A program made the translations under genes and the position numbers. From contig MGGJ01000012.1 in assembly GCA_001792345.1 (NCBI GenBank), positions 6,091 to 70,090 on the forward strand: a stretch of 64,000 bases of DNA, read 5' to 3'. Shown piece after piece: positions 1-56,674 of the stretch (position 1 is its first letter; each line of letters opens with the position of its first letter). The stretch comes from Candidatus Woesebacteria bacterium RIFCSPHIGHO2_01_FULL_39_32 (GTDB taxonomy: Bacteria > Patescibacteriota > Microgenomatia > UBA8517). A model generated the notes under the pieces. That model had not been told where the DNA came from. It did not search any database and saw nothing but the letters and a program-made list of their open reading frames with translations.

Positions 1-458
1 TTATTGTTCCCGAGGGTATTAAGCCCGTAGAGCGCGCTCCAACTGCAAGACCTAGAATCCGTCAACTTACGCCTGATGCTGGTACAGTGGTTGCTTCAGG
101 GGCTTTTGTCTGGCCTACAAGCGGGCAAATTTCTCAAGGATTTGCTTGGTATCACAAAGGAGTAGATATCGCTAATAGATCGGCCCCTGATATTTTAGCT
201 GCAGATTCCGGAACGGTTGTGGTTGCAGGTTGGCCAGATAACTATGGATACGGCAATAGGGTTATCATAGATCATGGAAACGGTTACAAAACCTTGTACG
301 GACATTTATCAAAGATTTATGTAGTTTCAGGACAAACCGTATCTCGTGGTTCGGCTATCGGTAAGATGGGTTCAACTGGTCGTTCAACTGGAAATCACCT
401 TCACTTTGAAGTTGTTAAAAATGGAACCTACATTAGTCCTCTAACAGTCCTTCGATAA
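1..458 (+). CDS. M23/LytM-family metallopeptidase (5'-partial; frame open from window start)
   Basis: Frame 3 is open from nt 3 with no upstream stop, so the gene starts outside the window. Motifs HGNGYKTLYGHLS and GSTGRSTGNHLHFEV (the HxH motif) are typical of M23 peptidases. Confidence 0.8.
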   Translation, partial: IVPEGIKPVERAPTARPRIRQLTPDAGTVVASGAFVWPTSGQISQGFAWYHKGVDIANRSAPDILAADSGTVVVAGWPDNYGYGNRVIIDHGNGYKTLYGHLSKIYVVSGQTVSRGSAIGKMGSTGRSTGNHLHFEVVKNGTYISPLTVLR

Positions 459-535: not shown

Positions 536-606
536 GGGCCGTTAGTACAGTGGTAATATACACCCTTCGCATGGGTGAGACATCGGTTCGATTCCGATAC
601 GGTCCA
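536..606 (+). tRNA. tRNA-Ala (anticodon CGC)
   Basis: Cloverleaf: acceptor GGGCCGT/ACGGTCC with the G3:U70 wobble pair (the Ala identity element). Anticodon stem CACCC/GGGTG with loop TTCGCAT gives anticodon CGC. T-arm GGTTCGATTCC. CCA is not encoded. Confidence 0.75.
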
Positions 607-634
607 CACGTCAGAAATCGACTTTTCCGCTTCA

Positions 635-776: not shown

Positions 777-1316
777 TCAGGGAACTGGGGAAAGAATTGT
801 TTGAGAGGATCTCCAAAATAAAAAGATAATAATACTTAAAATTGCTACAACAATTATTGTAATGATTATCAGCTTCGTTTTTTTGTCAATTTCTAATTTT
901 TGAGCTTCTCTAACTGGAGGAACTTGAGTTGGTTGATTTGCTGGTTGTAATATACTTGTTTCTAAAGCCATACTATCTCTCGCGACTCTTACCACAGGTG
1001 TTTCAGGAATATTTATTTCGCGAACCGGTCTATCTATTATTTTAAAATTCTCTTTTCTATCAATGAGTGAAATTTCTGATGGTTCTTGGAGTATCTTTTC
1101 TTCTATCTTTCTAATTCTAGGATGTGTTTCGGAAGCTCGTTCATATTTTCTTCCAAAAACAGAATCCAGATCATTCTTCTTAAAATATCTATGACCTCCC
1201 GGAGAGCGATAGGATTCAAGTTTTCTTTTTTTCTCCCATCGCCTCAAAGTATCTATTGAAACTCCTAGATATTCAGATGCTTGACCTATTGTCATTAAGT
1301 CGAGTTTGTCTGGCAT
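777..1316 (-). CDS. Membrane-anchored DNA-binding protein: N-terminal excisionase/MerR-like HTH (HTH_17-like), linker, C-terminal TM helix
   Basis: N-terminus MTIGQASEYLGVSIDTLRRWEKKRKLESYRSPGGHRYF is an excisionase-family HTH. C-terminus KLIIITIIVVAILSIIIFLFW is a TM helix. It is a paralog of the N-terminus of the 2526-aa giant protein (47714..55294). Confidence 0.6.
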   Translation of the reverse strand: MPDKLDLMTIGQASEYLGVSIDTLRRWEKKRKLESYRSPGGHRYFKKNDLDSVFGRKYERASETHPRIRKIEEKILQEPSEISLIDRKENFKIIDRPVREINIPETPVVRVARDSMALETSILQPANQPTQVPPVREAQKLEIDKKTKLIIITIIVVAILSIIIFLFWRSSQTILSPVP

Positions 1317-1375
1317 ATAAATATGGCAAGAATACCTTATTTTGCATATATTTGTAAAGATTTAGCGAACGAAAT

Positions 1376-2081: not shown

Positions 2082-3890
2082 ATGTATCCGAGTCAAACTT
2101 CGTTGATTCCTGTTATAGTTTCTTTATCTAAATTCTTTATAGAAAATGGTTTTACATCAATACATAGGTGGTATCCATATTGGTATTTAGGCGTACCTTT
2201 TAGGTATTTAACCGGACCTGTTGTACCGCTATCAGTTTATCTATTAGATAGTGTTTTTACTCATACCTCACTATTTACAATAATTATTTATCTAACTCTT
2301 GCTAGTTTGTTAACCGGAATTGTAGGTTGGGCGATTTTAATTAACAAAATAAATAAAGGAAGGATGTTAGGTTTTGTTTTTGCTTTAATTTATGCAATAA
2401 TGCCGTGGAAATATTTTCAGGCATTTTACCTGGACGAGGCTTCATTTGTAATCGCAAGAAATTTTCTTCCCTTTTGTTTAATTTTAGTGTGGAATTTGTT
2501 GGGACGGAATAAAGCTAAAGAATTTATTTTTGCTTCCTTTAGTATTTCATTTTTGTTTCTAATTAACACAAGCATACTACCAATATTGATTGTCGGTTTA
2601 GTAACCGTCACTCTCGCAAAAAGTTTTGAAAAAAGTAGGATAAAGGGTTTGTTAGTTCAGCTTAAACTTCTGTCTTTTCTGGTCGTATCAAGCTTATTAT
2701 TAGTTACTTTCGTTTGGTATACGCCGAATTATTGGTGGACGATTTTAACCAACCCATCATTGGGTGGAAACCCGGTATATAGAGTAATCTATCAGCTTTT
2801 CAACTCACTCAGATTCGCTTTACCAATTTTTGTTGCTGTTTTTGTAGTCTACTTCAATTATAAATTTAAAGAAAAATTGAAAATATTTACATTAGTTTGG
2901 CTGGCTGTTTTTATCTTTTTGACAGTTTATAGAATGCTTCAGGATATTGATTTTTGGATGGATTGGACTAGCTGGTTTTTTGAAATAGAAATCGGTGTTA
3001 CATTAATTTTATCAATTTCGATTTATCCCATATTGAAAAGATTTATTTATAGGAATTTCAAATTAATTAAGGAGTCACAAATAGCAGATGATAAGACTAG
3101 CAATTTATCAATGAGACTTAATAAGTACTACCTACTTCTTATTTTAATTTTTTTACTTCCCTTTTACTTTGTTTGGCGGATTCACAAACTAGTGGGGACA
3201 CAAGAAGTATTTACAAATAAACCTCCTGAAATTATCAAAAGCGTCGAAAAGCTTTCCGAACTTGCGGGCGGTGAAAGAGTATTTATTTCGGGGTCAGGAG
3301 TTTTTTGGGCGAACTCTCTATATAATTTGAATCAGGTGCGGGGTGGGGTGGATAAGGTAAGCATCCACCCACTTTGGCAGCATGGTGCATATCAAATAAG
3401 AGAAGGAAATGACTCAGAACTTACCCGCTTATGGTTAAAAAGTTTGGGAGTAGAGTGGGTTTTGGTACACGGTGGAAGGTCTTCCGACTATTTTAAAGAT
3501 TTTAGTAATTTAGACAAATGGGATAAAGTGGGAGAGATGGCATGGGAAGGAAACGGGGATAGAATTTATAAAATAGTGGATTCAGGTTTGGTTTGGGGAG
3601 GTAATATTACTTTGAATCAATTACCTATAGCCCCACAGAGAGGGGATGATCTTAATGGACTTCAGCAATATATTCGTTTATTGGAGGAGAAATTACCTTA
3701 TGAATACAGTAATGCAAGAATTGAAATAGCAGATGTTTCAGATTTTGAGTTTATAATTGTACTTATCACCTTTGACAAAGGTTGGGAAGCATTTAACGAA
3801 AAAGGAAATAAATTGAATGTATTAAGAGATTCCTTCGGACACATGATAGTTGAAACGCTTAATTCTCAGAAGATATTCCTTCACTATTAA
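2082..3890 (+). CDS. Polytopic membrane protein with C-terminal soluble domain; putative GT-C-type glycosyltransferase
   Basis: About 12 hydrophobic segments in the first ~400 aa, then a hydrophilic ~200-aa domain. The N-terminal region resembles that of 9508..10827. Confidence 0.55.
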   Translation: MYPSQTSLIPVIVSLSKFFIENGFTSIHRWYPYWYLGVPFRYLTGPVVPLSVYLLDSVFTHTSLFTIIIYLTLASLLTGIVGWAILINKINKGRMLGFVFALIYAIMPWKYFQAFYLDEASFVIARNFLPFCLILVWNLLGRNKAKEFIFASFSISFLFLINTSILPILIVGLVTVTLAKSFEKSRIKGLLVQLKLLSFLVVSSLLLVTFVWYTPNYWWTILTNPSLGGNPVYRVIYQLFNSLRFALPIFVAVFVVYFNYKFKEKLKIFTLVWLAVFIFLTVYRMLQDIDFWMDWTSWFFEIEIGVTLILSISIYPILKRFIYRNFKLIKESQIADDKTSNLSMRLNKYYLLLILIFLLPFYFVWRIHKLVGTQEVFTNKPPEIIKSVEKLSELAGGERVFISGSGVFWANSLYNLNQVRGGVDKVSIHPLWQHGAYQIREGNDSELTRLWLKSLGVEWVLVHGGRSSDYFKDFSNLDKWDKVGEMAWEGNGDRIYKIVDSGLVWGGNITLNQLPIAPQRGDDLNGLQQYIRLLEEKLPYEYSNARIEIADVSDFEFIIVLITFDKGWEAFNEKGNKLNVLRDSFGHMIVETLNSQKIFLHY

Positions 3891-4239
3891 CTTCTACCTT
3901 TTTTCAGAACGTTTGCTGAACGATTTAGCCTTCAATAAGATATCAATAAAAAGTCTGAGTAACTTATAATATAGGACGTACTCCGAAAAAATATAAAGAC
4001 AATTCCATTAAATTAGAACAATTATTTTATCCTAAATTAATCTCTATTATTCGGACACATATTCAAAGTATAGAACATTAGTCACATTATAAAGGATGCA
4101 ATAATCCTCTTACTATGTAATCATTTATAAAGTTATCAAAATACACTTCGATAGCTAGCGAGGGGGGTGGAAGAATTATAAATTTTTATTTTTTCTTATC
4201 GTCTTTTTTAGATTAAGGCTAAGATAATACAAAACACCA

Positions 4240-4270
4240 TTGACAAACGTTACCCATTTAATGTTAACAT
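4240..4270 (+). promoter_or_regulatory. Candidate sigma70-like promoter (TTGACA ... TAACAT) ~85 bp upstream of the 1529-aa fusion gene
   Basis: TTGACA at 4240-4245 and an AT-rich -10-like hexamer 17-19 nt downstream. Read by eye. Confidence 0.2.
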
Positions 4271-4352
4271 TAATAGCTGAAGCTATTTTTAAGCACATGA
4301 GTAAATAATTATGTAAACAGCTGTTTAAATCTATTTTTAATTAAACCTGCCC

Positions 4353-7300
4353 ATGAAGACAAAGTTAACTTCGGATAAAAGGTATGAATTAATTCAAAAA
4401 GCACTAAAGGGTGAACCTCTAAAATTGCTTTGCCAGGAATACGGTATTTCCACAGCTTTATTTAACAGATTGCTTCGGCGTTACGAACAATATGGTAAGA
4501 AAGGTTTGATTGCAGGGAAACCCGGAAGAAAAAGAAAATCAAGAGTTCCGAAGAAGATAGAATTCAGACCGCTTTCTCCGCATGAACGCTTACGAATTGT
4601 CGAAAACATTATAAATGAAGGCGAATCAGTTTCGGATGTTGCACGACAATATCAAACTTCAAGAAATACTATCTATAAATGGTTGAAAAGATACCGAGAA
4701 AGCAATAAAGAGAAAATATCGGCATTTGAGGACAAAATCCCCGAAGTTAGAAGATATTACCGCCAGTCTCCCGCCCTTTATCAGGATGCTGTTCTTTCTT
4801 TAGTCGCCAAACATCCCGAATTCGGCGTCAGAAAAATTGTATCTAATTTACCTCAAATAGGAGCTAAGCCGATTCTGGGTCACCATGGAGTTCAAAATAT
4901 TTTAAGAAGACAAGACCTTTCGACATATGAGCAAAGACTGGTTTACTCCCAAGCTAAAGAAACACCCGTAATCCGTGGAATTTCAGATTTGCTTACTTAT
5001 GTTGCGAGATTCTTTGCACTTCCATACGAGAGCAGAAGAAAAGTAATTCAAATCTTTTACACTTTTGCTTTTTCGGCGATTACAACAATTTTTATTTTAG
5101 GTTTAGGGAATTATATAGCCACTTCTTTTTCGAAGATTCCAGACGTAAATCCGATCGGTTACTTCTTTGCCACAATAGCTCTAGTCATGGGAGGATTATT
5201 CTTCCTTTACTCAATGAAGTATTTTCTGACTCTTGCTCTTGTTCTTTCGTATTCACAGACAGAGGCAAAAGGTGAAAGACAAGATCTAGGAGGTAAAAGA
5301 AATGGTTTTCTCTCCTGGATATTAGGATTAGGTAATGGAAACAATAATGGGATTTATCCAAACGCAAGATTGAGTCTGGAGAATGGAAAATCAGGTGTCA
5401 GCGGTCTTGAACCCAATCTTTCCCACATTAAACTAGATAGATACCCCTTCATATCAGTCCACATACCCTTATACAACGAAAAATATGTAGCCGAGCGTGT
5501 AGCCAAAGCAGTAACCAACTTTGAGTACGGATCAACCCACTCACCGCAAGACTATGAAGTAATCCTCTGTGACGATTCTACCGATGAAACAACGGCAATT
5601 ATCAGAAACTATATGGCAAAGCATCTTGCCAAAGGAGAACACTTACATACTATTGTTAACAAAGAAGAAGGTTGGGAACTAAGTAAAGTAGAGGTAAGAG
5701 CTGGAGTAACATTAAAACATTTACACCGTACTACAAGACAAGGTTTCAAGGGTGGCGCATTAAAACTGGCTCTTACCCTCTGTGACCCCCGTACAGAATT
5801 TGTAAGTATCTTTGACGCAGACTTTGTTCCATATCCGGATACCTTGGAGCTATTCCTAAAGTATTTCAAAGCAACAGCAGGAACCCTCGACTTCGCTCAG
5901 GACAAGGTGGCACTGAGGCAATCTAACATAGCGGCAGTCCAGGGATACCAATGGCACGTATTAAATAAATCCGAAAACTGGATCACAAGGGGAGTAAGAA
6001 GTGAATATGCAGGAAGCTATGTAATTGAGAGGAGTGGTCAGGAAATATACGGAGGTTTAAAACATATTTCAGGTGCAGTCTACCTTATCAGAAAAGACGT
6101 TTTAGATGAAGTAGGCTGGGAAACATCAATAACCGAAGATTATGAATTAACACTAAAACTATACGAGAAAGGTTACAAAGTAGTCTACACTCCTTATATC
6201 CAAGCACCGGCTGAGTGTGTCTCAACCCTTAAAAGACTCATCAGACAAAGAATGAGATGGGCAGAAGGCCACAGCCATAATGTGAGGAAGATGTTTGGTA
6301 GGTTAATGTTTGGACGTTGGGAAGAGATTGGTACTAATAATCCGGCCTTTGCAAATGATCGAATTACTAATTACTCTAATTATTCTAAACAAGCACCAAG
6401 CACCAATGACAAAATTGGAAAATTGGGTATTGGGAATTCTTTAGATCAATTAGAAATTAGAAATTTACAAAAGAAGTTCATTCCCTCTCCTCTTACTCTT
6501 TCTGAAAAACTAGAATTTGCCTACAATGCTCCTTACTACCTCCAAGCCTTCTTCTTCCTTATTGGTACCATCTCTTGGTTAATATCAGAAACTATATTCA
6601 AAACATCTCTACCATTCTGGAGTCAGCTTTGGGGATGGAGCCTAGTATTAACTAACATGCTAGCTTTACCTTTAATGAACTCAGTGGGCTTATTTTTGGA
6701 AGAGAGCGAGGAAAAAGACTATGGAGGCATATTATCATTTATTGTCCTATCCTACATTGTCGTACCCTTCCAAGCCTATGCATCAGTAAAAGGTTTTCTT
6801 GAACACGAAGAAGGAACATGGTTTAGAACTCCTAAAACAGGAAGGATTACAGACATCTTCACAAGAGGACGCTTCTACAGATTCATTTCTGGAATACTTC
6901 CAAGGCGTGCAGAACAAGTTGTCAACAGCCAGTTGTCAGTAGCCACTAACTATATTTCTTTAGCTACAGCAAATAACAGATTTGATAAAGGCGACATGAT
7001 AAGTAGTAATAAAACTAAGATCAGATGGGTTGGAAAAGTAACATTTGTTTTTTCTTTAATAGCAACCCTAATTACATATCAGACTGTGATTCTTGATTAC
7101 CAAGGAAGGTTGGAAGGACCTGCCAATATTTTAAATGGTAGACAAGCTAGTTTGTCAAGCAGCAAGAAAGTTTTTTCAAGTGCGGAAAATCCAAGATTCA
7201 CTCTGAGCTTAAAGAATAAAAAAGTGAAGAGTACATCAATATTTAGGAGATCTACAATCTATGCTGCACAGAAAGACAGCATAGATGTCGATGTATATTA

Positions 7301-8942
7301 TTTGGATCGAAGGGCTGATCTGCCGGTTGAAATTAAACGCAAAGATGACAATATTTATGATATTGAGATAGGAAATAAAGACAATCTTTCCCCTGGTGTT
7401 TACAACCTTGTTGTAAAAGGTACAACATTGGGTGATGAATTTGAAGTCGAAAAGAAATTTAGTTGGGGTGTTCTGGCATTTAACACTACTAAAAGTGTAT
7501 ATGAACCGGGTGAACGGATAAAAATGGGTGTTGGTGTTGTTGATGACGCAGGAAGAACTATATGTGATGCGAAGGTCAACCTGTTTATTACGGTTCCTTC
7601 GGAGGGAAAGACTTATGAACTTTCAACCAATAACGGATTGCTGCGTCAAAGCGGGGAATGTTTGCGGGATAGCATTACAAATAAGGCTGATTATGAGGCA
7701 GAGTTTACGGCCAGGAGTGTTGAGGAAACTTATTCAGTACTACTGGAAGCAGAAAGCTATAATGGTAAAAAATCGGTAGAAGAAAGCATAGTTATTCGTG
7801 ACAACTTACCCTTTATTGTTGAGAGGGTTTCTTATCCGACCAGAATTTACCCACCGGTAAGCTATCCTGTTAAATTAAAAATAGTAGCAAATCAAGATTT
7901 TGAAGGGAGTATTATCGAGAGTTTTCCGAATAGCGAGTTTGTGGTTTATGAAGTAGGGGAAGGCGGAGAAAGAAAAGAAAATAAAATTGTCTGGAAAGTC
8001 AATCTAAGAAAAGGCGAGACTTACGAGTTAGATTACACGCTTGGCTTTCCTATGATATCTCCCGCCTTTTATTTAATCGGGCCTCTAACTTTTGTCGAGA
8101 GCGAAAAGATGATTTTTAGGGAGGAAAAACCTTGGCAAGTGGCGGCTGATTCCATAACGTTTCAGGAACTTGATTCAGGTGTAATCGAAAGCTCTACCGC
8201 GACTATTACGTCCGTGACGACAGCCACCAATTCAACGGCAGTCAACAATCATTTATATTTAGCTGTAGTGACTACAAAAGGTAATAGATCAGTAGATAGT
8301 GTTTCGGGATTGGGTTTAAGCTGGAGCCTAGTTGATAGTCAGTGCGGAGACCGTCAACAGACTAATTTGGCAGTATTTAAAGCTCTCGGAAGCCCTTCGG
8401 GAGATGGTGCGGTTACAGCGAACTTAAACGGTGGTACAGCTTATTCCGGAGGGGCTACCATCGGAGTGTATCGTTATAGTGGCGTAGATATTGCAAGCCC
8501 GATCGGAAATACTGAAAAAGCAAATACGGGTGGTGTTGGGGCGTCGGCAGGAGTTTGTGATACTACAGGAACTGACACGAACAGTTACAGTTTTTCAACC
8601 CTTGATACGTCACAAGCCAACTCCATGGTTTTTTCTGCAGCCTCAAATCGTACTAGAACGCACACCGAAGGGACTAACTACAACGAACGGGGGGATTTTA
8701 GAACCGGAAGTTCAGGAGATTCAGCCGCCCAGGCAGTACAGGATCAAATTTTTGCCAGTCAAACAACAAACCTTACAGTAGACGGGACATGGAGCGGTGT
8801 TGTTGATTGGGCGGTTGTTGCAATCGAGATTAAAACACCCGAAAACTTACTGCTTTTGACCTTGCTTTCGCCGGTTTTGTTCATAAAACTTAAGTCTATA
8901 AAAAAGAGGAAAAAAGGATTGAAAAAATCAAAAAAGGACTAA
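4353..8942 (+). CDS. Multidomain fusion: N-terminal double HTH (transposase/sigma-like), TM, processive family-2 glycosyltransferase (D, DxD, ED, QxxRW), TM bundle, ~700-aa extracellular domain, C-terminal hydrophobic+polybasic sorting-signal-like tail
   Basis: HTH: LLCQEYGISTALFNRLLRRY and SVSDVARQYQTSRNTIYKWLKRY. GT2: VHIPLYNE, ILCDDSTDET, FDADFVPYPD, QRMRWAEGH. C-terminus: IKTPENLLLLTLLSPVLFIKLKSIKKRKKGLKKSKKD. Confidence 0.75.
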   Translation: MKTKLTSDKRYELIQKALKGEPLKLLCQEYGISTALFNRLLRRYEQYGKKGLIAGKPGRKRKSRVPKKIEFRPLSPHERLRIVENIINEGESVSDVARQYQTSRNTIYKWLKRYRESNKEKISAFEDKIPEVRRYYRQSPALYQDAVLSLVAKHPEFGVRKIVSNLPQIGAKPILGHHGVQNILRRQDLSTYEQRLVYSQAKETPVIRGISDLLTYVARFFALPYESRRKVIQIFYTFAFSAITTIFILGLGNYIATSFSKIPDVNPIGYFFATIALVMGGLFFLYSMKYFLTLALVLSYSQTEAKGERQDLGGKRNGFLSWILGLGNGNNNGIYPNARLSLENGKSGVSGLEPNLSHIKLDRYPFISVHIPLYNEKYVAERVAKAVTNFEYGSTHSPQDYEVILCDDSTDETTAIIRNYMAKHLAKGEHLHTIVNKEEGWELSKVEVRAGVTLKHLHRTTRQGFKGGALKLALTLCDPRTEFVSIFDADFVPYPDTLELFLKYFKATAGTLDFAQDKVALRQSNIAAVQGYQWHVLNKSENWITRGVRSEYAGSYVIERSGQEIYGGLKHISGAVYLIRKDVLDEVGWETSITEDYELTLKLYEKGYKVVYTPYIQAPAECVSTLKRLIRQRMRWAEGHSHNVRKMFGRLMFGRWEEIGTNNPAFANDRITNYSNYSKQAPSTNDKIGKLGIGNSLDQLEIRNLQKKFIPSPLTLSEKLEFAYNAPYYLQAFFFLIGTISWLISETIFKTSLPFWSQLWGWSLVLTNMLALPLMNSVGLFLEESEEKDYGGILSFIVLSYIVVPFQAYASVKGFLEHEEGTWFRTPKTGRITDIFTRGRFYRFISGILPRRAEQVVNSQLSVATNYISLATANNRFDKGDMISSNKTKIRWVGKVTFVFSLIATLITYQTVILDYQGRLEGPANILNGRQASLSSSKKVFSSAENPRFTLSLKNKKVKSTSIFRRSTIYAAQKDSIDVDVYYLDRRADLPVEIKRKDDNIYDIEIGNKDNLSPGVYNLVVKGTTLGDEFEVEKKFSWGVLAFNTTKSVYEPGERIKMGVGVVDDAGRTICDAKVNLFITVPSEGKTYELSTNNGLLRQSGECLRDSITNKADYEAEFTARSVEETYSVLLEAESYNGKKSVEESIVIRDNLPFIVERVSYPTRIYPPVSYPVKLKIVANQDFEGSIIESFPNSEFVVYEVGEGGERKENKIVWKVNLRKGETYELDYTLGFPMISPAFYLIGPLTFVESEKMIFREEKPWQVAADSITFQELDSGVIESSTATITSVTTATNSTAVNNHLYLAVVTTKGNRSVDSVSGLGLSWSLVDSQCGDRQQTNLAVFKALGSPSGDGAVTANLNGGTAYSGGATIGVYRYSGVDIASPIGNTEKANTGGVGASAGVCDTTGTDTNSYSFSTLDTSQANSMVFSAASNRTRTHTEGTNYNERGDFRTGSSGDSAAQAVQDQIFASQTTNLTVDGTWSGVVDWAVVAIEIKTPENLLLLTLLSPVLFIKLKSIKKRKKGLKKSKKD

Positions 8943-8943
8943 T

Positions 8944-9486
8944 ATGAGTAGAAAGGACCTTATCAGATCAATCTTAGCAATAGTCGTTATCACTTTATTG
9001 GTAATGCCTCTGGTACTGACCTTTAACGAGATTCTTACAAAGGTCTTTGAGAAATTTACCCTCTATAATTTGCTTGAGAATTTCTGGGTTCCTATTCAAG
9101 TGCGTATCGTTGGTCTTGTGGTTAGATCATTTGATCTTAGTTATATTCCTATCAAGGGGGGAATGATAGTGAACGGTATTGAAATGAAAATGACTTGGAA
9201 TTGTTTGGGCTGGCAGTCCATTCTTCTTTTTTCGATATCGGCAATCCTTGGTTTGTCGGGTTCAAAAGCAACTTTCTTTTCGAAATTTCAAACTTTATTT
9301 CTTGGCCTATTTTTTCTATTTTGGTTGAATATTGCCAGGATAACGACAACTGTACTTTTGGCGGTTTACTCAATGCCTATATTTAGAATTGTATATCATG
9401 ATTTATTTGCAGCGATATTGACAATATTTTTTCTTATTTTCTTTTGGTGGTTTTCTTACTCTTTTCTTTTGACTGAAAAAATCTGA
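8944..9486 (+). CDS. Small polytopic membrane protein, candidate miniature exosortase/archaeosortase-family transpeptidase
   Basis: 180 aa with ~5 TM segments. Cys in TWNCLGWQS, an N-x-x-R motif (LNIARI) and a His (VYHD) recall the exosortase Cys/Arg motifs. It lies 2 nt downstream of a protein ending in a TM+polybasic tail. Confidence 0.45.
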   Translation: MSRKDLIRSILAIVVITLLVMPLVLTFNEILTKVFEKFTLYNLLENFWVPIQVRIVGLVVRSFDLSYIPIKGGMIVNGIEMKMTWNCLGWQSILLFSISAILGLSGSKATFFSKFQTLFLGLFFLFWLNIARITTTVLLAVYSMPIFRIVYHDLFAAILTIFFLIFFWWFSYSFLLTEKI

Positions 9487-47713: not shown

Positions 47714-50700
47714 TTACCGCGATGCGGTAAGATCCACTATCCACCAGTTGAAAGTCACGTCAGTTACTGTTGGTAAGTCAAAGCCGACTACAATCTCTCC
47801 ATCTTTCTGCTCTTTTATATAAAGCACGTTATTCTGAGTTGGGGAAGTGGGAGTAACAAACACCAAAGAATTTGATTTAACGTTTGGATTTTTTATTGTT
47901 ACAACACTTGATCTGGAAGGAACTTTGGCGATGCCCGCTGAGGCCTCACTATGATAGATCATATCAGACAATATAGCGGAGGAAGTTGCATTTGGATCAT
48001 CTTTTATTGTAAGTCTATCGGTGGTTACTCCTTTAAACTCTGCAGAACCAGTAGCTGAGACTGATGCGACCTCGTCACCTAAGCTATTTGTTACACTCAA
48101 TAACTTTCCGAAATTTGTCAAATTCTCACTGTCGGCATCAAGCCTTAAACTCTTTGCAGAAAGTGTACCGCCGATTGTGACATCTCCTGCAATTTGTATA
48201 TTTCCAAGTGTGTCAATCTGGACTAAACCTGCCATTAAGTAAAGAGGTTGTGAAGCAGAAGATTGTATTGATAGGGGAGCATTTATGGTGTCAATATTGG
48301 TAGCAAGTAGCTGGTAGCTAGTATCTAGGGAAGATTGAATTACTAAATCAGAACCAACTACTATAGAATGCGTAACTGAGAGAGAATCAATTGCGGCTGT
48401 ATTGGTAACATAAAGATTTTCCAGCGCGAGCTCATTTAGGGATGCACTACCTGTTGCTGATGTCGGCCAACTTTGAGATTCCGCAAGAAGAGTTTGATTT
48501 GCTTCTACTTCGGCTAAAAGTCCTTCAATTTCTTCTCGAGTTAGGGAGTTTTGAGAGACAACCTCGTCAGCAATTACTTTTCCAACTCGTAGTTCGCCTG
48601 CGATTGAGGCCTCATTTGTTTTCAGACTATCGCTTGCTAACTTTCCCGAGAAAGTTGCGCTTCGGGCGCTAATATCACCCTCAGTGTAAACATTTCCGAT
48701 TTCATCTACCGAAGCAACCGTTTTTCCACTAGAGTTTTTGAGAAGTAACTTTCCAAACGATGGTTGATTTGGATCACCAATTTGAATTGCAATATCTTTT
48801 TCTCCATCCAAAGGTTTTATTTCTTTAGTTAGTACTTGGGGAGAAACCAAACCTACTTTTACCAGCATTCTGTCAACTGTACCTTGGAAGGCGGTAAATC
48901 CATCAGTAATTATTTTTGTAAGACCGGAGAGTTTATCAATTAAATTTCCATCTTTGTCAATAAGCTTTTGGTAGCCTTCATTTTGCATATCCTCAGCAAG
49001 TTTTATATCTCCGGAATCAGTGAGAGTCCCTAGTGGTTCAAACCAAGAGTTATTAATAAATACAGTTATTAAATCTTTTCCTGATCCTGGGCTCCATGGT
49101 TCAAGGGCCTGACCTATGACTCTTCCATTACTTTGGGATTTCATTGCAAGGCCAGGTTCCGGACTTGTTGTTAAATAATCCCCAGGAATAATTGGACCAG
49201 AATTTTGAGAGATTTTAACCGGTACGCGACCTGCAAGAGCAATGGGGTATCCTGGGGCCTCTCCAAGTACAATTCCGGGATTAGTTGATACAACTCCAAC
49301 AACTCTTGATTCATAGGCTGAAGCGCTTTTTATGACGTGTTCGGGATTTTCAGGATCAACTTTGACTACCTCTCCAGGTGAAAGAGACTGGATGCTGGGG
49401 AAAAACTCAGCAATATCAACCCCATCGGTATTGTCGCTGTTGTTTGCTGAGGCATCCATCCATCCGAGTAAATTCCAGTTTGTACCGTCGTATATTAAAA
49501 ATAACTGGTCTCCTGTGGCAAAGGCAGTAATGTCGGTCGTTCCACAATTTATATTTGAAGAAGTACAGTCAAGGTCAAAATTTGCAGCAGTGGATATCTC
49601 TATATATATAATTTGCCCCGCTGTACCATTTGTGAAGTTTGTAACTAATCTATTGGTACTATTGTTTTCCAAGAAGTGTGACCCTCCCGCGACAGATGGG
49701 GTAACACTATCGCCAAGTGTTTGTTGTGAATCCAGCGCAAAAGCACCTTGGACTATCATTTGACCCGTTGCGGGAAGGTCAAAGACTATGTCACCCGAAT
49801 TGTAAGTTTTAAGTGTAAGGTTATTACTTTCAAAAGATTCACCGGCACGAACGGTCAAAGGACCGTAGCTGTCAATTGTTGATGCGGTTTGATTAGTAAA
49901 AATTAAATCATATGCTATTGAGACATCTCCTGCGGCTGTGAATTCGTGGGGGAGCGCGGAGGTTATTTTGGCTGTATCAACGCTGAAAAGCTCAGATGAA
50001 TTATCGTAAAGCGCAAAAAGATTTCCGGTTAGGTCTCCATATTGACCAATGTTTACTTTGACCAAATCACCGCTTGCCGTTGCCCATGTTGTTGGAGACC
50101 AGTCAAAAAGTCCCAAGTTTCCTGAGGTTAACGAAGTAGCCGTTGAATTAACTTTAAGAAGCGATCCGGTTGTCCAGGTATTAGAACTTCCCGTATTAAG
50201 ATTAAGCAGTGTACCTGTCGTTAAAGTGGAGGATGTTATACCAAATACATCGCCTGTTGTTGTTACATCAGAAGTTATATCGGCAACTCCACCTGCGGCG
50301 GTTTCAATTCCATAAGCTTGGAAGCTTGCAGAAGCGGTTGCTGTTCCACCGACCAATAAGTCCCATGTGGAGTTTCCAGGAGAAAGCATAACACTGCTTC
50401 CCAATTGCCAGTAATTTGTTCCACTACCCGTATCGTCCGTTCCACAGTCCCATTCAAAATTTGTGTTATCCCATTCTAAAATACCTCCTGCTGCACATCC
50501 TCGAATTAGGGTTAGCTCACCATTTCCGTCGAATTCCAATCCTGATGTAGATGAAGTTGTTGAACCGTCGGCAGCAGTTGTATCAAGGTCGACTTGTAAT
50601 ACGTTGGACGCTACCTCCAGACCACTTCCATTGAAGTCGTTAATGCTATCACCGGATATTACAATAAAATTATCACCCAAACTAATGCCATTGAAAAGTT

Positions 50701-53700
50701 CTGGGTCTGATACGTTTATTGCAGTGGTTGAAGTGTCGGTCGCAGTCGCGGTAATTTCTAAATAATTAGAAATTGTGTTGCCAGTGGTTTCAAGATTTGC
50801 GAGATAAATAAGATTTTCTGTAAGTCCGTTAGCAGCATCGTCAAAATTGTAAACAGTAATACCCTTTTGAGTTCCTCCCGAGCTTGCATTAGTCAATTTA
50901 ACGTTGATCATCTCAACACTATTTGATCCAGTTATGGTATTGGTAATTGCTAGATTTTCTGTCTCGGTTAAGGTAAGCGTTACGTCGTCGTTGAAAGTCG
51001 CACCGCCGGTAAAAGAAAAGTCACTATCAGAGTTATCGTCTGTTGTAAAAGTAAACTGAGTCGCACTAGCAGATCCAAGTGATAAAGCTCTTGCTCCTGC
51101 TGTGCCGATATTTATATTTTGAGCAATAGCATCATTACCTATTGAAATTACTCCGGCAGATGAATTAAGTTCCAATACTCCCGTAGCATCAACTAGTAGT
51201 GTATCTGCTGAAGAGAGAATTAAATCTCCCGCTGAACCTGTTACTGCAATAGTTAGATCTTCCGCATCGGCGTCTGCAGCAACAGAAATATTGCTTGCTC
51301 CCGTTGCTCCTGTTACGTCAATCGATAAGGATGTTAATGCATCAAGAGTAAAGCCTCCAGCTGTTGCATCAAGATTAAGAGCTGACGCTCCGGTTCCTGC
51401 TGAAGACATTGCAATTTCTTGTGCTCCACCTCCTGCTGCTGACAGAGTAAGACTTTGCCCAGAGCCTGTAACTGTGAAGTTAGAAGCGGAAGTTGCATCA
51501 AGTGATATAGCAACGGCATCGGCAGTTATTGAAGTTACGTCGGCACTTCCTAATGCAATTGCTCCTGCACCAGTTGGGTCTATTGTTAATGTTTCCGCAT
51601 CTGATGTTGTGATTAACGCTGATGCATCGTTGTATCCCAGTGTCAAATCAGCAGCTTGAATGAGTCCATTCCTTGTTAAATTAAATACAGTAGTTCCCGA
51701 AGCACTAGCTGAGAGGATATTCTGGTTGGTTCCGGTGTCGTTGAATATTGCCAGAGCCCTGCCTGCACGGGTTCCTGTTACAGTGAATAATCCATGAATA
51801 GCAGATTCGGTAACGGTTCCGATGCCAACTCCCAAAAGAGTAGCACCATTATTCGGGTAGAGGAGGCTATTGGCTTCTGTCCATTTGCTTTCACCCGAGC
51901 CGCCTGTTGTTATCCAGCCGCAGTTTGCCTGGTCTTTGTCACACAAAAGTCTGTCGCCCCAGAAAAGGTCTTCGCCGGCAGTTCCACCTGCTGCTGCAAC
52001 CCCGAGGAGATTAAAGGCATTGGCGTCATTATTTAAGCCTATGGTAGTCCCATATACATCCAGTACATCACCATCTGCAATGATTACATTGCCGCCAGTT
52101 GGATTAAAAGTCAGATCTGTTGTTCCGCCCGTTGTTATTGACCCGACGCCCACAAAATCCAATGAATTAATATCAAGGATGGTTCCTTCAATTGAAATAT
52201 TACCCAAGTTCCCATCGTCATTAATAGTTATTGCACCCGTTGTACCACTTACATCAAATTCGGTTGTATCAACTGCAAATGAATCGCCGCCGTCGCCGAA
52301 GATCATTGCACCACCTGGTGTTAAAGTAAATGCTCCAGTAGTAGTAAATGTTGTACTTGCACCGTCAAAGGCTATATTGGTATCGGCAATTGTTACATCG
52401 CCATTGCTGTCAAGTGCACCGTCAAGATATGTTGTCCCGTCGACCTCCAATGAATCTGTAATGTAAAGATCAGATCCGTCTCCGATTGCAGCACCACCTG
52501 CATCTCCTGTTCCTATGGTATTGTATGCATTGCCATCAGGAGAAGAGTCACCAAAAGAAAACACGCCGTCTGCCGAAAGATTGCCGCTTCTGTCTAAATT
52601 CATGACAGTAGTTCCCGAAGCACTAGCTGAGAGGATATTTTGATCAGTACCAGTATCATCTAATACGACAAGAGCTTTTCCACCCTCCGTTCCAGTTACT
52701 GTAAGATTGCCAATAGAGTCGCCCGCTGTTGTTGAACCAACAAGTACATTGTATGTAGCAGCATCAGGGTATATTACAGAACCTGAAAGGGTCCAGACGT
52801 CGGATCCACTTCCTGCTGAACACACCACTACATTATTACTTCCGTCTATACAAAGACCGTTGCCCGTCGAAGAGGATAAACCGGATATTACAAAGGTGCT
52901 ATCAGCATCTGTTGTAAATGTAATATCTGCAGTCGATTGGGGAGAGAAACTTATAGAAGAATCATCCGAAAAAGTAGCAAAAGGAGTCCCGGTGTCTTGC
53001 AAAACAAAATCTCCTGTACCATCCAGGTCAAAGGTAAAGTTATTGGCCCCTAGGTTAACTTCTGTGGCAGCATCTAAATCAAGTGTATCCTGGAATTCTG
53101 TAAAGTCGAGAATATCGTCCGCAACCGAGATATTTATTTCGTTAGTAGGAGATGCGGTAAGAGTAAAATCGGTACTGAAATCTAGAGTGTCTACATTTGT
53201 ACCGATAGGTGTATCATTAGTTTCGACGTTTATTATTGCGCTAGTTGCTCCTGTGTCGTTGCTACATTCCCACAAATCAGTAGTCTCATTCCATTTAAGA
53301 ATTTGTCCTGTTGCACAACCCTGAAGTAAAGTTAAGCCCGAGGATAAGACCTCAAGTCCTGACGAAGATGAGGTTGTGGATGAAAGCGCATCAGTTGCTG
53401 ATGTTAAATCTATAGTTAATAATCCCGATGAAACTTGTAATCCATTACCTGAAAAGTCGGAGATTGCTTCGGAGTTAACAGTTATACTTCCGGCAAGGGT
53501 TAGATTTCCTGAATTATCGACAGTTAAAAGATCGGTTCCAGTTGAGTTTTCAAAGACCACTAGGTTTGTGCTCTGAGTAGAATTTCCTTGAACTAGAAGC
53601 TGGATTTCATTTGCATCACCGTCAACTGCCAACTTTCCAAGTTCAGTTGTACCTCCAACGGTAACACTGTCGGTCGTATTTGTTAAGTAAACAAAACCTG

Positions 53701-55294: not shown

Positions 55295-55310
55295 TTAGAT
55301 TCAAAATGGG

Positions 55311-55347
55311 TATATTCATTACCACACATTTAGGGTTACTTTGTCAA
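55311..55347 (-). promoter_or_regulatory. Candidate promoter of the giant gene (minus-strand TTGACA-N17-TGGTAATGA)
   Basis: Reverse complement of 55311-55347 reads cTTGACAaagtaaccctaaatgtgTGGTAATGA. Confidence 0.25.
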
Positions 55348-55830
55348 GTAGATTTTTTCTTTTATATATAGTTGTCAGAGAACCAGAATACTCAGAAAAC
55401 TAGGAGAACTTAGGGAATCAGAAATCCAGGTGACCAGAAAGCCTGAAACCTGTAATTGTAGGGTTTATTTAGTTTCGGATACTCCAGTATTCTAAGTTAT
55501 CTGGTACCCCGTTTTATTAGAATCTAAGAATTTAGCTTCAGACCTCTACAATTAGGTATAAAAAGCAAACACTTAATATTTCCGTAAAATAAACGCAAGC
55601 AAATTGGAGAACGAAAAAAAAGAATATATTATTATTTTGCGGTAAAAAGCGGAGAATATAGTAAGTAAATTTTTACTATGCTTTTAATTGCGGAGATTAT
55701 TTAGGAAATCTTTTAAAATATAAACAAATCTATGTAATCTTATATCAATAAATTTAATGGACAATAATTCTGTTTGAGTTAAAACAATATTTTATATCAT
55801 CGGTTTGTATTTTTTAAAAAAACAAACCTA

Positions 55831-55859
55831 TTGATTTTTAGAATTTATATCTCTAGTAT
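55831..55859 (+). promoter_or_regulatory. Candidate promoter TTGATT-N17-TAGTAT upstream of 55907 gene/atp cluster
   Basis: Hexamers with 17-nt spacing, ~45 nt upstream of the start codon. Confidence 0.3.
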
Positions 55860-55906: not shown

Positions 55907-56674
55907 ATGAAGCTCAGAACCTGTCTTTTATTATCTTTATTTATTTTACTCTTTTCAGTTAAATTATCTTCTGCACAGATAACATCTTCCGGAATAGCCG
56001 TATCCACTCCTGTGACTGATCCTGATGCACAAGACGGTGACATTATTTGTACGTATCAATCTGGAAATGCGCGATGCAATAAGGAGTACGATACTGCAAT
56101 TTATGGTGTAATTAGTGATAGTCCTGCGGCTGCAATTGAAGATGAAGATTTGCAAAATTCAAGACTAGTAATTTCATCAGGAGTGTCTACGGTTAGAGTT
56201 TCAAGTGCAAATGGAGACATATCTGAAGGTGATTTTATTACAACTTCTCAGCGTTCCGGGATTGGGGTGAAGGCTGATAGAAATGGGTACGTTTTGGGAA
56301 TGGCCTTGGAAAACTATGAGTCGGGGGACACGAATGCTATAGGTAGGATACAGGTGATGGTGAATATACATCCTACAGGTTCTCTTACAGGTTCTCGCGG
56401 AAACCTTTTACAATTTATACGCGAGGGTCTCGCTGTTCCAGTATTCGATCCGGTTGAGTCTTTAAGATATATCTTGGCTGTTGCAATTGTACTCATATCA
56501 TTCACTTTGGGAATGATATATTTCGGGCGAGCCTCAAGAGCGGGTATTGAAGCAATCGGTAGGAACCCTCTAGCTAAAAAAGTGATACAGTTAACAGTAT
56601 TTTTAAATATTACGTTAACAATTGTTATAGTAATGGTGGGGTTAGGTCTTGCCTACCTTATTCTAATTTTCTAA
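55907..56674 (+). CDS. Chimeric protein: signal peptide, ~185-aa extracytoplasmic domain, C-terminal two-helix hairpin resembling F/V-ATPase subunit c but lacking the carboxylate
   Basis: The C-terminal 70 aa (ILAVAIVLISFTLGMIYFGRASRAGIEAIGRNPLAKKVIQLTVFLNITLTIVIVMVGLGLAYLILIF) align with c-subunit features: a Gly-containing TM1, the R-N/Q-P polar loop, and VGLGL in TM2. The Asp/Glu position in TM2 is occupied by Leu/Thr. Confidence 0.55.
   Translation: MKLRTCLLLSLFILLFSVKLSSAQITSSGIAVSTPVTDPDAQDGDIICTYQSGNARCNKEYDTAIYGVISDSPAAAIEDEDLQNSRLVISSGVSTVRVSSANGDISEGDFITTSQRSGIGVKADRNGYVLGMALENYESGDTNAIGRIQVMVNIHPTGSLTGSRGNLLQFIREGLAVPVFDPVESLRYILAVAIVLISFTLGMIYFGRASRAGIEAIGRNPLAKKVIQLTVFLNITLTIVIVMVGLGLAYLILIF

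What the first reader, a model, noticed from the sequence alone, without database searches (positions are those of the whole stretch)
777..1316. Membrane-tethered excisionase/MerR-like HTH proteins: a 179-aa HTH-linker-TM protein next to tRNA-Ala and the same module at the N-terminus of the 2526-aa surface giant
The two N-termini are clearly paralogous (MTIGQASEYLGVSIDTLRRWEKKRKLESYRSPGGHRYF vs LTIKQASEYLSVSGKTLRRWEKSGRLSAIRTSGGHRRYL). In both proteins the HTH is predicted cytoplasmic and is followed by a single TM helix. The small protein then ends after 12 residues. The giant continues for ~2350 extracellular residues (N-terminal module at about 54845-55294). Topologically this resembles ToxR/CadC-type membrane one-component regulators, but with an excisionase-type HTH and, in one case, a fibre-like ectodomain. 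It suggests either transmembrane signalling from the cell surface directly to DNA, or DNA or nucleoid tethering of a surface appendage.
Basis: partly seen in the sequence, partly recalled or inferred. Interest (0 to 1): 0.7.

Follow-up and report, generated by a model that had tools for sequence, protein, structure and literature searches.

The report
Membrane-anchored DNA-binding heads on surface proteins
In this ultra-small (CPR/Woesebacteria-like) bacterium, a small tail-anchored membrane protein and a 2,500-residue surface giant each start with a BldC/MerR-type DNA-binding domain facing the cytoplasm, and each type has its own short DNA motif in its own promoter, which suggests these envelope proteins regulate their own genes directly from the membrane.

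Summary
ORF 777-1316(-) (179 aa) and the giant ORF 47714-55246(-) (2,510 aa from the likely ATG) both begin with a MerR/HTH_17 winged helix-turn-helix above Pfam cut-offs, followed by a linker and one TM helix. The closest structures are BldC and RacA, and BldC's DNA-contact residues are invariant.

Neither protein is a one-off. The small protein belongs to a tail-anchored family of at least 222 clusters, nearly all ending in an extracytoplasmic "…SP(I/V)P". HTH-TM-giant is a recurrent Microgenomates design (more than 60 relatives). Orthologous giants with the same C-terminal module carry an integrase "SAM-like" DNA-binding head instead.

Two HTH subtypes each have their own promoter motif:
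- Subtype I (small family; Daviesbacteria-type giants): AATCTATGYA, about 63-fold enriched upstream. It occurs upstream of 11/34 small genes against 3/268 controls.
- Subtype II (the window's giant): TGTCCAA/TTGGACA, present upstream of 34/38 such giants. It is rare or absent upstream of the other classes.

The window carries both: box I in the small gene's promoter spacer, and two box II copies in the giant's leader.

Best reading: membrane-integrated, self-regulating transcription factors, so the locus is also tethered to the membrane. This is computational only. The direction of regulation and any signalling are inferred. The excisionase-at-tRNA reading is rejected.

The parts
777..1316 (-). 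Small tail-anchored HTH protein (179 aa), subtype-I head
   Evidence: ORF. Pfam and NCBIfam hits. Family of 249 hits / 222 clusters at E<=1e-30.
1158..1298 (-). Winged HTH domain of the small protein (residues 7-53)
   Evidence: AF2 pLDDT about 95. Foldseek best matches are BldC 6AMA/6AMK (TM about 0.8), then RacA. T23, R25, R26, W27, H42 and R43 are invariant or nearly so in 111 sequences.
804..884 (-). Single TM helix of the small protein (residues 145-171; hydrophobic core 149-168)
   Evidence: Kyte-Doolittle scan. AF2 helix with pLDDT >90. 117/120 homologues have exactly one C-terminal TM.
780..803 (-). Extracytoplasmic C-terminal tail ending ...SSQTILSPVP
   Evidence: 90/111 family members end exactly at [ST]P[IVL]P. 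Its function is unknown.
1329..1358 (-). Candidate promoter of the small gene, TTTACA-N18-TATTCT, with box I (AATATATGCA, 1343-1352) filling the start of the spacer
   Evidence: Promoter scan. PWM trained on giant promoters scores 14.7 bits, rank 5 of 34 small genes; 11/34 small genes against 3/268 controls, p=2e-9.
536..607 (+). tRNA-Ala(CGC), a conserved convergent neighbour and not an integration scar
   Evidence: ARAGORN and Rfam. Same arrangement in 12/18 related loci.
87..458 (+). M23 peptidoglycan peptidase, a conserved neighbour of the small gene
   Evidence: NCBIfam hits. Homologue within 10 kb in 14 small-family loci.
2082..9486 (+). Conserved envelope cassette: 8-TM protein (2082-3890), HTH_28/HTH_23-fused processive GT2 synthase (4353-8942) and exosortase/archaeosortase-family protein (8944-9486)
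   Evidence: Pfam, NCBIfam and TM counts. The cassette recurs next to small tail-anchored HTH genes.
47714..55246 (-). HTH-TM giant (2,510 aa from the ATG; the ORF listing gives a TTG at 55294), subtype-II head
   Evidence: ORF. 110 relatives of 1,390-4,280 aa, about 65 with the same head and TM. Start-codon argument.
55091..55231 (-). Winged HTH of the giant (KTLRRW...GGHRRY, the BldC contact set)
   Evidence: Pfam and NCBIfam. Contact-residue mapping.
54851..54904 (-). Single TM helix (signal anchor) of the giant
   Evidence: The only hydrophobic window in 2,526 aa. TM at a median of about 90 aa after the HTH in 58 giants.
47714..49477 (-). Conserved C-terminal module of the giant (orf255-like beta domain ... 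FNWWIV end)
   Evidence: Shared by HTH-, SAM- and split-SAM-headed giants. AF2 is confident only for residues 20-147 and 510-582 of the segment. Weak phage-fibre and decoration-protein fold hits.
55274..55295 (-). Two direct copies of box II ((A/T)TGTCCAA) in the giant's leader, 13 nt apart
   Evidence: The only adjacent pair among 8 copies in 64 kb. Box II lies upstream of 34/38 subtype-II giants, 6.1/kb against 0.20/kb elsewhere.
55315..55347 (-). Candidate promoter of the giant: TTGACA (55342-55347) ... TGtGGTAATGAA (55315-55326)
   Evidence: Matches the consensus layout cTTGACA-N-TGTCTTAATAAA seen in related loci. It was not flagged by the generic promoter scan. Coordinates.
55907..56674 (+). 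Divergent 255-aa partner: signal peptide, a beta domain homologous to giant residues ~1989-2094 (TTG numbering), and two C-terminal TM helices
   Evidence: BLASTP E=3e-10. Homologue near giants in 22 loci. Identical synteny in L093-L095.
55727..55736 (+). Exact box I copy (AATCTATGTA) in the giant/orf255 intergenic region, facing orf255
   Evidence: Not conserved in L093-L095, so it may be chance.

Best explanation
Both proteins are single-pass, N-in membrane proteins. Their cytoplasmic BldC/MerR-type winged HTH is a sequence-specific DNA-binding head that recognises a short box in the promoter or leader of its own gene. There are two specificity subtypes. Subtype I (recognition helix SIDTLRRWEK) comprises the small tail-anchored protein and the Daviesbacteria-type giants, and pairs with AATCTATGYA. 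This box is typically arranged as 10-bp direct repeats filling the -35/-10 spacer. Subtype II (SxKTLRRWE...GGHRRY) comprises the window's giant, and pairs with TTGGACAT/ATGTCCAA boxes just downstream of the -10. Because the head stays attached to the membrane-inserted protein, the amount of protein in the envelope is read out directly at its own promoter. The box positions, in the spacer or at the transcription start, suggest negative feedback. Binding necessarily draws the locus to the membrane. What is shown: the domain identities, the architecture and its recurrence, conservation of the DNA-contact residues, head-swapping, and co-variation between subtype and box. What is inferred: that the heads bind these boxes, the sign of regulation, and the N-in topology. 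The topology rests on the positive-inside rule, on homology to a signal-peptide-bearing paralogue, and on the absence of any N-terminal signal peptide.
For: Fold and family. BldC contact residues (K26, T27, T29, R30, W31, K33, H46-R48; PMC5859096) map to columns that are invariant in 111 small proteins. KTLRRW and GGHRR are each present in 44 of the 54 giants whose HTH motifs could be extracted. Architecture recurrence: 117/120 small homologues are tail-anchored; about 65/110 giant relatives are HTH-TM-giant; 38 small and about 30 large in genome loci; 41/83 in metagenome loci. Head swapping: orthologous giants sharing the ~565-aa C-terminal module carry Phage_int_SAM_1 heads before the TM instead, so a second, unrelated DNA-binding fold fills the same position. 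Box I: 57 of 99 exact sites in 2.3 Mb lie within 250 nt upstream of HTH genes (expected 0.9). The promoter TTGACA-AATCTATGYA-AATCTATG-TACGAT is conserved. With a PWM trained on giants only, 11/34 small genes against 3/268 controls score >=10 bits, p=2e-9. Box II: found by an unbiased k-mer search (24/40 and 21/40 against a shuffle maximum of 14). It is upstream of 34/38 subtype-II giants, against 2/13 subtype-I giants, 0/4 SAM giants and 2/22 TM-less proteins; box I occurs 0 times upstream of subtype-II giants. Box presence tracks the D/K difference at the position of base-contacting BldC Lys26. Window: box I in the small promoter spacer; two box II copies in the giant's leader. Topology.
Against: There is no binding or expression data. 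The boxes could be bound by another factor, or could be promoter or 5'-leader RNA elements that co-evolve with the genes for other reasons (box II often forms an inverted pair that could fold in RNA). Only about a third of small-family promoters have a clear box I, and the window's copy has one mismatch. Total box counts in the 64-kb window are not above chance; only their locations are telling. The giant's promoter was not called by the generic scan. The K/R bias around the giants' TM is modest (+1.9 against +0.9), and no dedicated topology predictor was available. The NCBIfam BldC model scores below its cut-off. The 13-14-nt spacing of box II differs from BldC's 9-bp repeats.
Confidence: 0.55

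Rival explanations
1. Regulated-release signalling (Notch/RseA/CadC-like). The membrane-bound head is inactive or only partly active. Shedding of, or damage to, the ectodomain, or for the small protein recognition of its conserved extracytoplasmic ...SP(I/V)P C-terminus, triggers intramembrane proteolysis that frees the HTH to act on the boxes.
For: Long disordered linkers. A strictly conserved extracytoplasmic C-terminus in 90/111 small proteins. Conserved juxtamembrane motifs in some giants (LY..LH.DQKK before the TM in 17/58; VLAAT about 33 aa after it in 39/58). Proteolytic activation is documented for CadC (PMC11484849, seen). This reading is compatible with the box evidence.
Against: No site-2 protease, rhomboid or PDZ-protease linkage was found or systematically sought. 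Short tail-anchored relatives that end at the TM without any tail sit in the same gene cassette. ToxR and CadC show that release is not required for membrane-bound factors to find DNA (PMC6320335, PMC7888679).
Confidence: 0.15
2. The role is mainly architectural: a RacA-like chromosome-to-membrane anchor, or mechanical anchoring of a surface fibre to the nucleoid, with gene regulation incidental.
For: RacA is among the closest structures. Two unrelated DNA-binding folds are interchangeable at the same position, as expected if 'hold on to DNA' is what matters. A third HTH class heads the GT2 synthase in the same window.
Against: The boxes are subtype-specific and concentrated in the genes' own promoters rather than dispersed or origin-proximal. 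A single locus-specific site is a poor general anchor.
Confidence: 0.12
3. The boxes are not the heads' binding sites. They are lineage-specific promoter or leader elements (RNA hairpins, or sites for another regulator), and the HTH does something else, for example a RodZ-like protein-protein contact or simply a folded, basic topogenic domain.
For: RodZ is a precedent for an HTH-TM protein whose HTH binds protein (from my own knowledge; not retrieved here). Box II often occurs as an inverted pair in the transcribed leader. Other motifs (CCGCA/TGCGG) are enriched in giant upstream regions regardless of head type.
Against: BldC's DNA-contact residues are invariant. Box type co-varies with a base-contacting residue across lineages and across the small and giant architectures. 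Boxes also occur upstream of the -35 and as direct repeats, which an RNA hairpin does not explain. SAM-headed orthologues lack both boxes.
Confidence: 0.1
4. The small gene is an excisionase (recombination directionality factor) of a mobile element integrated at tRNA-Ala.
For: TIGR01764 'excise' and PHROG excisionase/transposase hits. The gene is adjacent to a tRNA.
Against: It has a TM anchor. tRNA-Ala(CGC) and M23 are conserved neighbours in 12/18 loci whose proteins are only 35-45% identical. No integrase was seen among the annotated neighbours. The family comprises 222 clusters with a fixed architecture.
Confidence: 0.02

Closest known systems
BldC (Streptomyces; PDB 6AMA/6AMK; PMC5859096)
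   Same: It is the best sequence and fold match. Both have a minimal MerR-type wHTH with no coiled-coil or effector domain. The DNA-contact residues are conserved (fully so in the giant's head). The boxes are short, AT-rich, contain a YpG step and are arranged as direct repeats.
   Different: BldC is a 68-aa soluble protein, whereas here the head is tethered by a 60-200-aa linker and a TM helix to nothing (small protein) or to a ~2,400-aa ectodomain. The NCBIfam BldC model scores below its cut-off. Repeat spacing is 10 bp (box I) or 13-14 bp (box II) rather than 9 bp. Binding is untested.
ToxR / CadC / TcpP membrane-integrated one-component regulators (PMC6320335, PMC7888679)
   Same: N-terminal cytoplasmic DNA-binding domain, a single TM, C-terminus outside. 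These are precedents for DNA binding while membrane-anchored.
   Different: Those use OmpR/PhoB-type wHTH heads and compact periplasmic sensor domains, and regulate other genes. Here the head is MerR/BldC-type, the ectodomain is absent or a giant putative fibre, and the predicted target is the gene's own promoter.
RacA (Bacillus subtilis chromosome anchor; PDB 5I44)
   Same: A MerR-like wHTH used to hold DNA at the membrane. It is the second-best structural match.
   Different: RacA is soluble and reaches the membrane through DivIVA. It binds GC-rich inverted repeats around the origin. It has no TM and no ectodomain.
Classical MerR-family regulators
   Same: The wHTH fold. The operator lies inside an over-long (18-nt) -35/-10 spacer (box I).
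   Different: There is no dimerisation coiled-coil and no effector domain (AF2: disordered after residue 53). The sites are direct repeats rather than a palindrome.
Xis / excisionase family (TIGR01764; Pukovnik Xis 4J2N)
   Same: The domain model is matched above its cut-off. Xis proteins also form head-to-tail arrays on direct repeats.
   Different: There is no mobile-element context, the protein is membrane-anchored, and it is a conserved chromosomal core gene.
RodZ
   Same: The HTH - TM - extracytoplasmic-domain topology in an envelope-biogenesis context.
   Different: RodZ has an XRE-type HTH that binds MreB rather than DNA (from my own knowledge). It is not homologous.

Membership tests
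MerR/HTH_17 superfamily DNA-binding domain (Pfam PF00376, PF12728, PF13411) | The sequence matches the domain models above gathering scores | tested here: met
   both proteins, all three models.
Classical MerR-family transcription regulator | A C-terminal coiled-coil dimerisation helix and an effector-binding domain after the wHTH | tested here: not met
   In the AF2 model the wHTH ends at residue 53, followed by a disordered linker and then the TM. There is no Pfam effector domain.
Classical MerR-family transcription regulator | A palindromic operator within a 19-20-bp -35/-10 spacer | tested here: inconclusive
   Box I lies in an 18-nt spacer but as direct repeats. Box II lies downstream of the -10.
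BldC family | A stand-alone minimal wHTH without coiled-coil; fold match to BldC | tested here: met
   Foldseek top hits are 6AMA/6AMK, target-normalised TM 0.76-0.83, rmsd 1.3-2.1 A. The phmmer best PDB hit is 6AMA. The domain is not stand-alone, however: it is fused to a linker and a TM.
BldC family | The curated NCBIfam model NF033787 at or above its cut-off (77 bits) | tested here: not met
   31.3 bits (small) and 46.7 bits (giant).
BldC family | Conservation of the DNA-contacting residues (K26, T27, R30, W31, K33, H46, R47, R48) | tested here: met
   The giant has all of them. The small family has D at the K26 position and Y at the R48 position, and the rest are invariant.
BldC family | Cooperative head-to-tail binding to direct repeats | not testable with these tools
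   Only indirect evidence: direct-repeat boxes in the genes' own promoters.
Excisionase / recombination directionality factor | The TIGR01764 domain model above its cut-off | tested here: met
   41.2 and 36.1 bits against a cut-off of 28.8.
Excisionase / recombination directionality factor | Encoded in a mobile element with a cognate integrase and att sites | tested here: not met
   Conserved chromosomal synteny including the tRNA. No integrase among the neighbours examined.
ToxR/CadC-type membrane-integrated one-component regulator | N-in topology: cytoplasmic DNA-binding head, one TM, C-terminus outside | tested here: met
   Single TM and K/R bias. The ectodomain is homologous to a signal-peptide-bearing protein. 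This is a prediction only.
ToxR/CadC-type membrane-integrated one-component regulator | An OmpR/PhoB-type winged-helix DNA-binding domain | tested here: not met
   The head is MerR/BldC-type.
ToxR/CadC-type membrane-integrated one-component regulator | An extracytoplasmic sensor domain that controls activity | not testable with these tools
   The small protein has 8-11 residues outside. The giant has about 2,380 residues of unknown function.
RacA-type chromosome anchor | A C-terminal coiled-coil with DivIVA interaction, and many dispersed GC-rich sites | tested here: not met
   NCBIfam RacA models score far below their cut-offs. There is no coiled-coil. The boxes are AT-rich and promoter-local.

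The most novel reading that the evidence does not exclude
Microgenomates (CPR) have a general, undescribed design principle: large envelope proteins carry their own interchangeable cytoplasmic DNA-binding heads. These proteins include giant surface fibres and possibly the HTH-fused GT2 synthase. The heads are two BldC-like HTH subtypes, integrase SAM-like domains and transposase-type HTHs. In this way each surface structure counts itself at its own promoter. Loss or loading of the ectodomain would then be relayed to DNA by proteolytic release, a Notch-like route from surface to genome in cells with very few classical regulators. The small protein, with its invariant extracytoplasmic ...SP(I/V)P end, would be the stub-like, ectodomain-less member of this system.
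Probability: 0.15. Interest if true: 0.9.

Novelty: new variant of a known kind. Interest (0 to 1): 0.75.

Why it matters
CPR/Patescibacteria make up a large share of bacterial diversity, have tiny genomes with few recognisable regulators, and depend on their surfaces for an attached lifestyle. How they control surface proteins is essentially unknown.

If these heads bind the boxes identified here, a structural surface protein and its transcription factor are the same polypeptide. That gives stoichiometric feedback from the envelope to the gene. It would extend membrane-integrated regulators beyond the ToxR family to a BldC-type head and to ectodomains of thousands of residues.

The two box/subtype pairs, the D/K specificity position and the SAM-headed orthologues make this directly testable in vitro without cultivating the organism. 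These proteins are currently auto-annotated as 'MerR family transcriptional regulator' of about 3,900 aa, or as 'excisionase'. Both labels hide the architecture.

Tried and rejected
1. Repeat search restricted to the window's two upstream regions gave only AT-rich noise. A 'TTCTGR' cluster upstream of the giant was not significant.
2. Per-locus hexamer clustering was individually non-significant. Only the recurrence of the same hexamer across loci led to box I.
3. I first assumed box I would be the window giant's operator. This was rejected: the nearest Woesebacteria giants (L093-L095) lack it. The explanation is the two HTH subtypes.
4. The exact box I at 55727-55736 as a conserved orf255 operator: not conserved in L093-L095, and PWM scores of that size occur in some shuffles.
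5. The idea that the ...SP(I/V)P tail is a mirror-image sorting signal for the neighbouring exosortase: no association. Tail-less short relatives sit in the same cassette, and many tailed ones have no exosortase within 10 kb.
6. Excisionase at a tRNA integration site: rejected.
7. Ectodomain identity: no PDB-sequence or PHROG match. The C-terminal model is low-confidence overall, with only weak phage-fibre-like matches.
8. Rfam: nothing but the tRNA in the window, and nothing in four related loci. The 'GCAGACGG' leader motif of the Daviesbacteria loci is absent from the window's leaders.
9. The generic promoter scan did not call the giant's promoter.
10. Eight literature searches and two targeted reads found no description of this architecture. 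The library covers open-access papers only, so absence is not proof.
Full report
OBSERVATION. The window (38.6% GC) encodes a 179-aa protein at 777-1316(-) and a giant ORF at 47714-55294(-). tRNA-Ala(CGC) lies at 536-607(+). Both proteins match Pfam MerR, HTH_17 and MerR_1 above gathering scores and TIGR01764 'excise' above its cut-off. Their N-termini are 49% identical over 63 aa (E=6e-15), and a six-frame phmmer scan finds no third copy in the window. Each has one hydrophobic segment: small residues 149-168, followed by 11 residues; giant residues 131-148 in TTG numbering. The residues before each TM are richer in K/R than those after it.

THE SMALL PROTEIN IS A FAMILY. It has 249 homologues, mostly Woesebacteria and other Patescibacteria of 170-300 aa. 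A profile search of 1.84 billion representatives gives 222 clusters at E<=1e-30. Of 120 homologues, 117 have exactly one TM, near the C-terminus. The family shares a ~55-aa HTH core, a variable proline- and charge-rich linker with 'DRPVR..IP' and 'SILTP' motifs, the TM, and a tail '...SSQxILSP(I/V)P'. Ninety of 111 members end exactly at [ST]P[IVL]P. The AF2 model has a confident winged HTH (residues 7-53, pLDDT about 95), a largely disordered linker and a confident TM helix (residues 145-171). The closest solved structures, by sequence and by fold, are BldC (6AMA/6AMK, TM about 0.8 normalised to the target), RacA (5I44), classical MerR N-domains and Xis. BldC's DNA-contacting residues, taken from PMC5859096, map to T23, R25, R26, W27, K29, H42 and R43. 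These are invariant or nearly so in all 111 sequences.

THE GIANT IS A FAMILY TOO. A search with the giant returns 110 proteins of 1,390-4,280 aa, chiefly Woesebacteria and Microgenomates. About 65 of them have the same HTH at about residue 25 and one TM at about residues 90-190. NCBI auto-names some of them 'MerR family DNA-binding transcriptional regulator'. Complete giants share a C-terminal '...F(N/D)WWIV' end. The ~565-aa C-terminal module of the window's giant also ends giants whose pre-TM head is not an HTH. Those carry one to three Phage_int_SAM_1 domains, above the gathering score for P0162, P0193 and P0216. In a further class the SAM head is split between an upstream 168-aa ORF and the giant's first ~50 residues. 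So orthologous ectodomains carry interchangeable cytoplasmic DNA-binding folds. The ectodomain itself is an orphan by sequence. A model of the C-terminal 587 aa is confident only for two beta domains, and these give weak matches to phage decoration, tailspike and fibre domains. 'Fibre-like' therefore remains plausible but unproven.

TOPOLOGY. No dedicated predictor was available. N-in is supported by four points. There is no N-terminal signal peptide. The head and linker are basic, with a K/R bias across the TM. Giant residues ~1989-2094 (TTG numbering) are homologous (E=3e-10) to the domain that follows a cleavable signal peptide in the neighbouring 255-aa protein, so that part of the giant is extracytoplasmic. 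The ectodomain composition is also typical of secreted proteins.

CONTEXT. The small gene's neighbours are conserved. The convergent tRNA-Ala(CGC) with the M23 peptidase behind it is found in 12/18 loci (tRNA) and 14 loci (M23). A cassette also recurs next to it. It comprises an 8-TM protein, a processive GT2 synthase that itself starts with transposase-type HTH_28/HTH_23 domains, and an exosortase/archaeosortase-family protein (TIGR04178, 28.9 bits against a cut-off of 23). This rules out the excisionase-at-a-tRNA reading. The giant's layout, iPGM <- 255-aa protein <- long intergenic region -> giant -> LamG giant, is reproduced in three Woesebacteria genomes. A homologue of the 255-aa protein lies near giants in 22 loci.

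OPERATORS. Upstream of HTH-giants from Daviesbacteria-type genomes there is a nearly invariant promoter: TTGACA-AATCTATGYA-AATCTATG-TACGAT, followed by a third copy and an inverted copy. Across 2.3 Mb of loci, 57 of 99 exact ATCTATG[CT]A sites lie within 250 nt upstream of an HTH gene on its strand, where 0.9 are expected. A weight matrix trained only on giant promoters finds a hit of >=10 bits upstream of 11/34 small tail-anchored HTH genes, against 3/268 other genes in the same loci (p=2e-9). The window's small gene scores 14.7 bits. Its box, AATATATGCA at 1343-1352, directly follows the -35 of the scan-predicted promoter TTTACA-N18-TATTCT.

SAM-headed giants have no such box (0 in 6 loci). 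Neither do the window's giant or its closest relatives. Comparing the heads explains this. Box-bearing giants have the small-family recognition helix (GVSIDTLRRWEK; subtype I). The window's giant and the Woesebacteria giants have VSxKTLRRWE...GGHRRY (subtype II, the full BldC contact set). The difference lies at the position of BldC's base-contacting Lys26.

A metagenome scan for subtype-II heads gave 80 loci, about half of them HTH-TM-large. An unbiased k-mer count over 40 non-redundant upstream regions returned TGTCCAA (24/40) and its complement TTGGACA (21/40), against a shuffle maximum of 14. Box II occurs upstream of 34/38 subtype-II giants, at 6.1/kb against 0.20/kb in the rest of those loci. 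It occurs upstream of only 2/13 subtype-I giants, 0/4 SAM giants and 2/22 TM-less subtype-II proteins. Box I never occurs upstream of subtype-II giants.

In the window, the only adjacent pair of box II copies (55274-55282 and 55287-55295) lies in the giant's leader. It is downstream of TTGACA (55342-55347) and TGtGGTAATGAA (55315-55326), matching the family layout. The listed TTG start lies inside the box, so the ATG at 55246 is the likely start.

INTERPRETATION. The most economical reading is that these are membrane-integrated transcription factors that bind their own promoters. This makes them BldC-type in the head, ToxR/CadC-like in topology, and unprecedented (to my knowledge and in the searched literature) in being fused to giant surface proteins. 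The position of the boxes, in the spacer or at the transcription start, suggests repression, that is, copy-number feedback from the envelope. Binding also tethers the locus to the membrane. Whether the ectodomain or the conserved ...SPIP tail modulates the head, for instance by proteolytic release, is open. All functional statements are inferences from sequence statistics. No binding, expression or topology experiment exists.

CAVEATS. Only a third of small-family promoters show a clear box I. The window's small-gene box has one mismatch. Box totals in the window are not above chance. The giant's promoter was not flagged by the generic scan. A second, head-independent motif (CCGCA/TGCGG) is enriched in all eight giant upstream regions examined and remains unexplained.

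Noticed in passing
window 4353-8942 (+): A 1,529-aa protein with N-terminal transposase-type HTH domains (HTH_28/HTH_23; IS481-like, residues ~75-208), then TM helices, a processive GT2 synthase domain (PgaC/CelA-like), more TM helices and a C-terminal TM. This is a third class of DNA-binding head on an envelope protein in the same window. Homologues (1,800-2,640 aa) sit next to small HTH-TM genes elsewhere.
   Followed up: partly
window 8944-9486 (+): A 180-aa multi-TM protein that passes the exosortase/archaeosortase signature model TIGR04178 (28.9 bits against a cut-off of 23). It lies immediately after the HTH-GT2 synthase and is conserved in the cassette. Its substrate is unknown, and I found no association with the ...SPIP tail.
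   Followed up: partly
window 55907-56674 (+): A 255-aa protein with a signal peptide, a beta domain shared with the giant, and a C-terminal two-helix hairpin that weakly resembles ATP synthase subunit c (NCBIfam E=0.06, far below the cut-off). It lies just upstream of iPGM and an ATP synthase operon. It is a conserved partner of the giants in 22 loci.
   Followed up: partly
window 55246-55906, and the intergenic regions of L087, L089 and L091-L095: The pentamer CCGCA/TGCGG (often as TTGCGG(T/A)A or TTACCGCAA) is over-represented in all eight giant upstream regions examined, whatever the head type (each P<=0.008 against shuffles). The window copies are at 55638 and 55689. It is a candidate site for another regulator.
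   Followed up: partly
L088 2482-3001; L090 2508-3017: In one class of giants the integrase-SAM head is split. An upstream 168-170-aa ORF ends with the first half of a SAM domain and the giant starts with the second half, in two different organisms. In L090 the ORFs overlap by 17 nt. This could be a programmed frameshift or a two-piece head.
   Followed up: no
L033, L040, L041, L043, L060, L075, L084 and others (upstream of orf255-like genes), and the giants' leaders in L031-L086: A conserved 'GCAGACGG' octamer. It forms the loop of a hairpin followed by a T-run upstream of orf255-like genes, and appears as 'AGGCAGACGGAGCC' just before the giants' start codons. There is no Rfam match, and it is absent from the window's leaders.
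   Followed up: partly
window 55727-55736 (+): An exact subtype-I box (AATCTATGTA) in the giant/orf255 intergenic region, facing orf255 and directly after a -35-like hexamer. It could mean cross-regulation by the small protein, but it is not conserved in L093-L095.
   Followed up: partly
window 42252-42623 (-) and 46738-47304 (-): Two '23S rRNA intervening-sequence protein' four-helix-bundle genes (one strong hit, one weak) flank a 1,361-aa protein with six LamG domains, immediately downstream of the giant. A similar small gene follows giants in L088.
   Followed up: no
P0231 (protein): A 623-aa protein with eight tandem matches to the subtype-I HTH profile. Several giants also carry two tandem HTH heads (L027, L029, L032, L061, L066, L078, L084, L085).
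   Followed up: no
L028, L030, L034-L036, L039, L042, L048, L051: A shorter tail-anchored variant (about 104-136 aa) of the HTH-TM protein ends at the TM with no ...SPIP tail, yet sits in the same cassette (8-TM protein, HTH-GT2 synthase, exosortase).
   Followed up: partly
L057 and L074 (cyanobacterial loci): Soluble ~211-aa cyanobacterial proteins with a closely related HTH have exact box I copies at their own gene start. In L057 there is also one in the -35/-10 spacer of the next gene (TTGACAgctaAATCTATGCAgaaTATAAT). This hints that the head-box pairing predates membrane anchoring.
   Followed up: no
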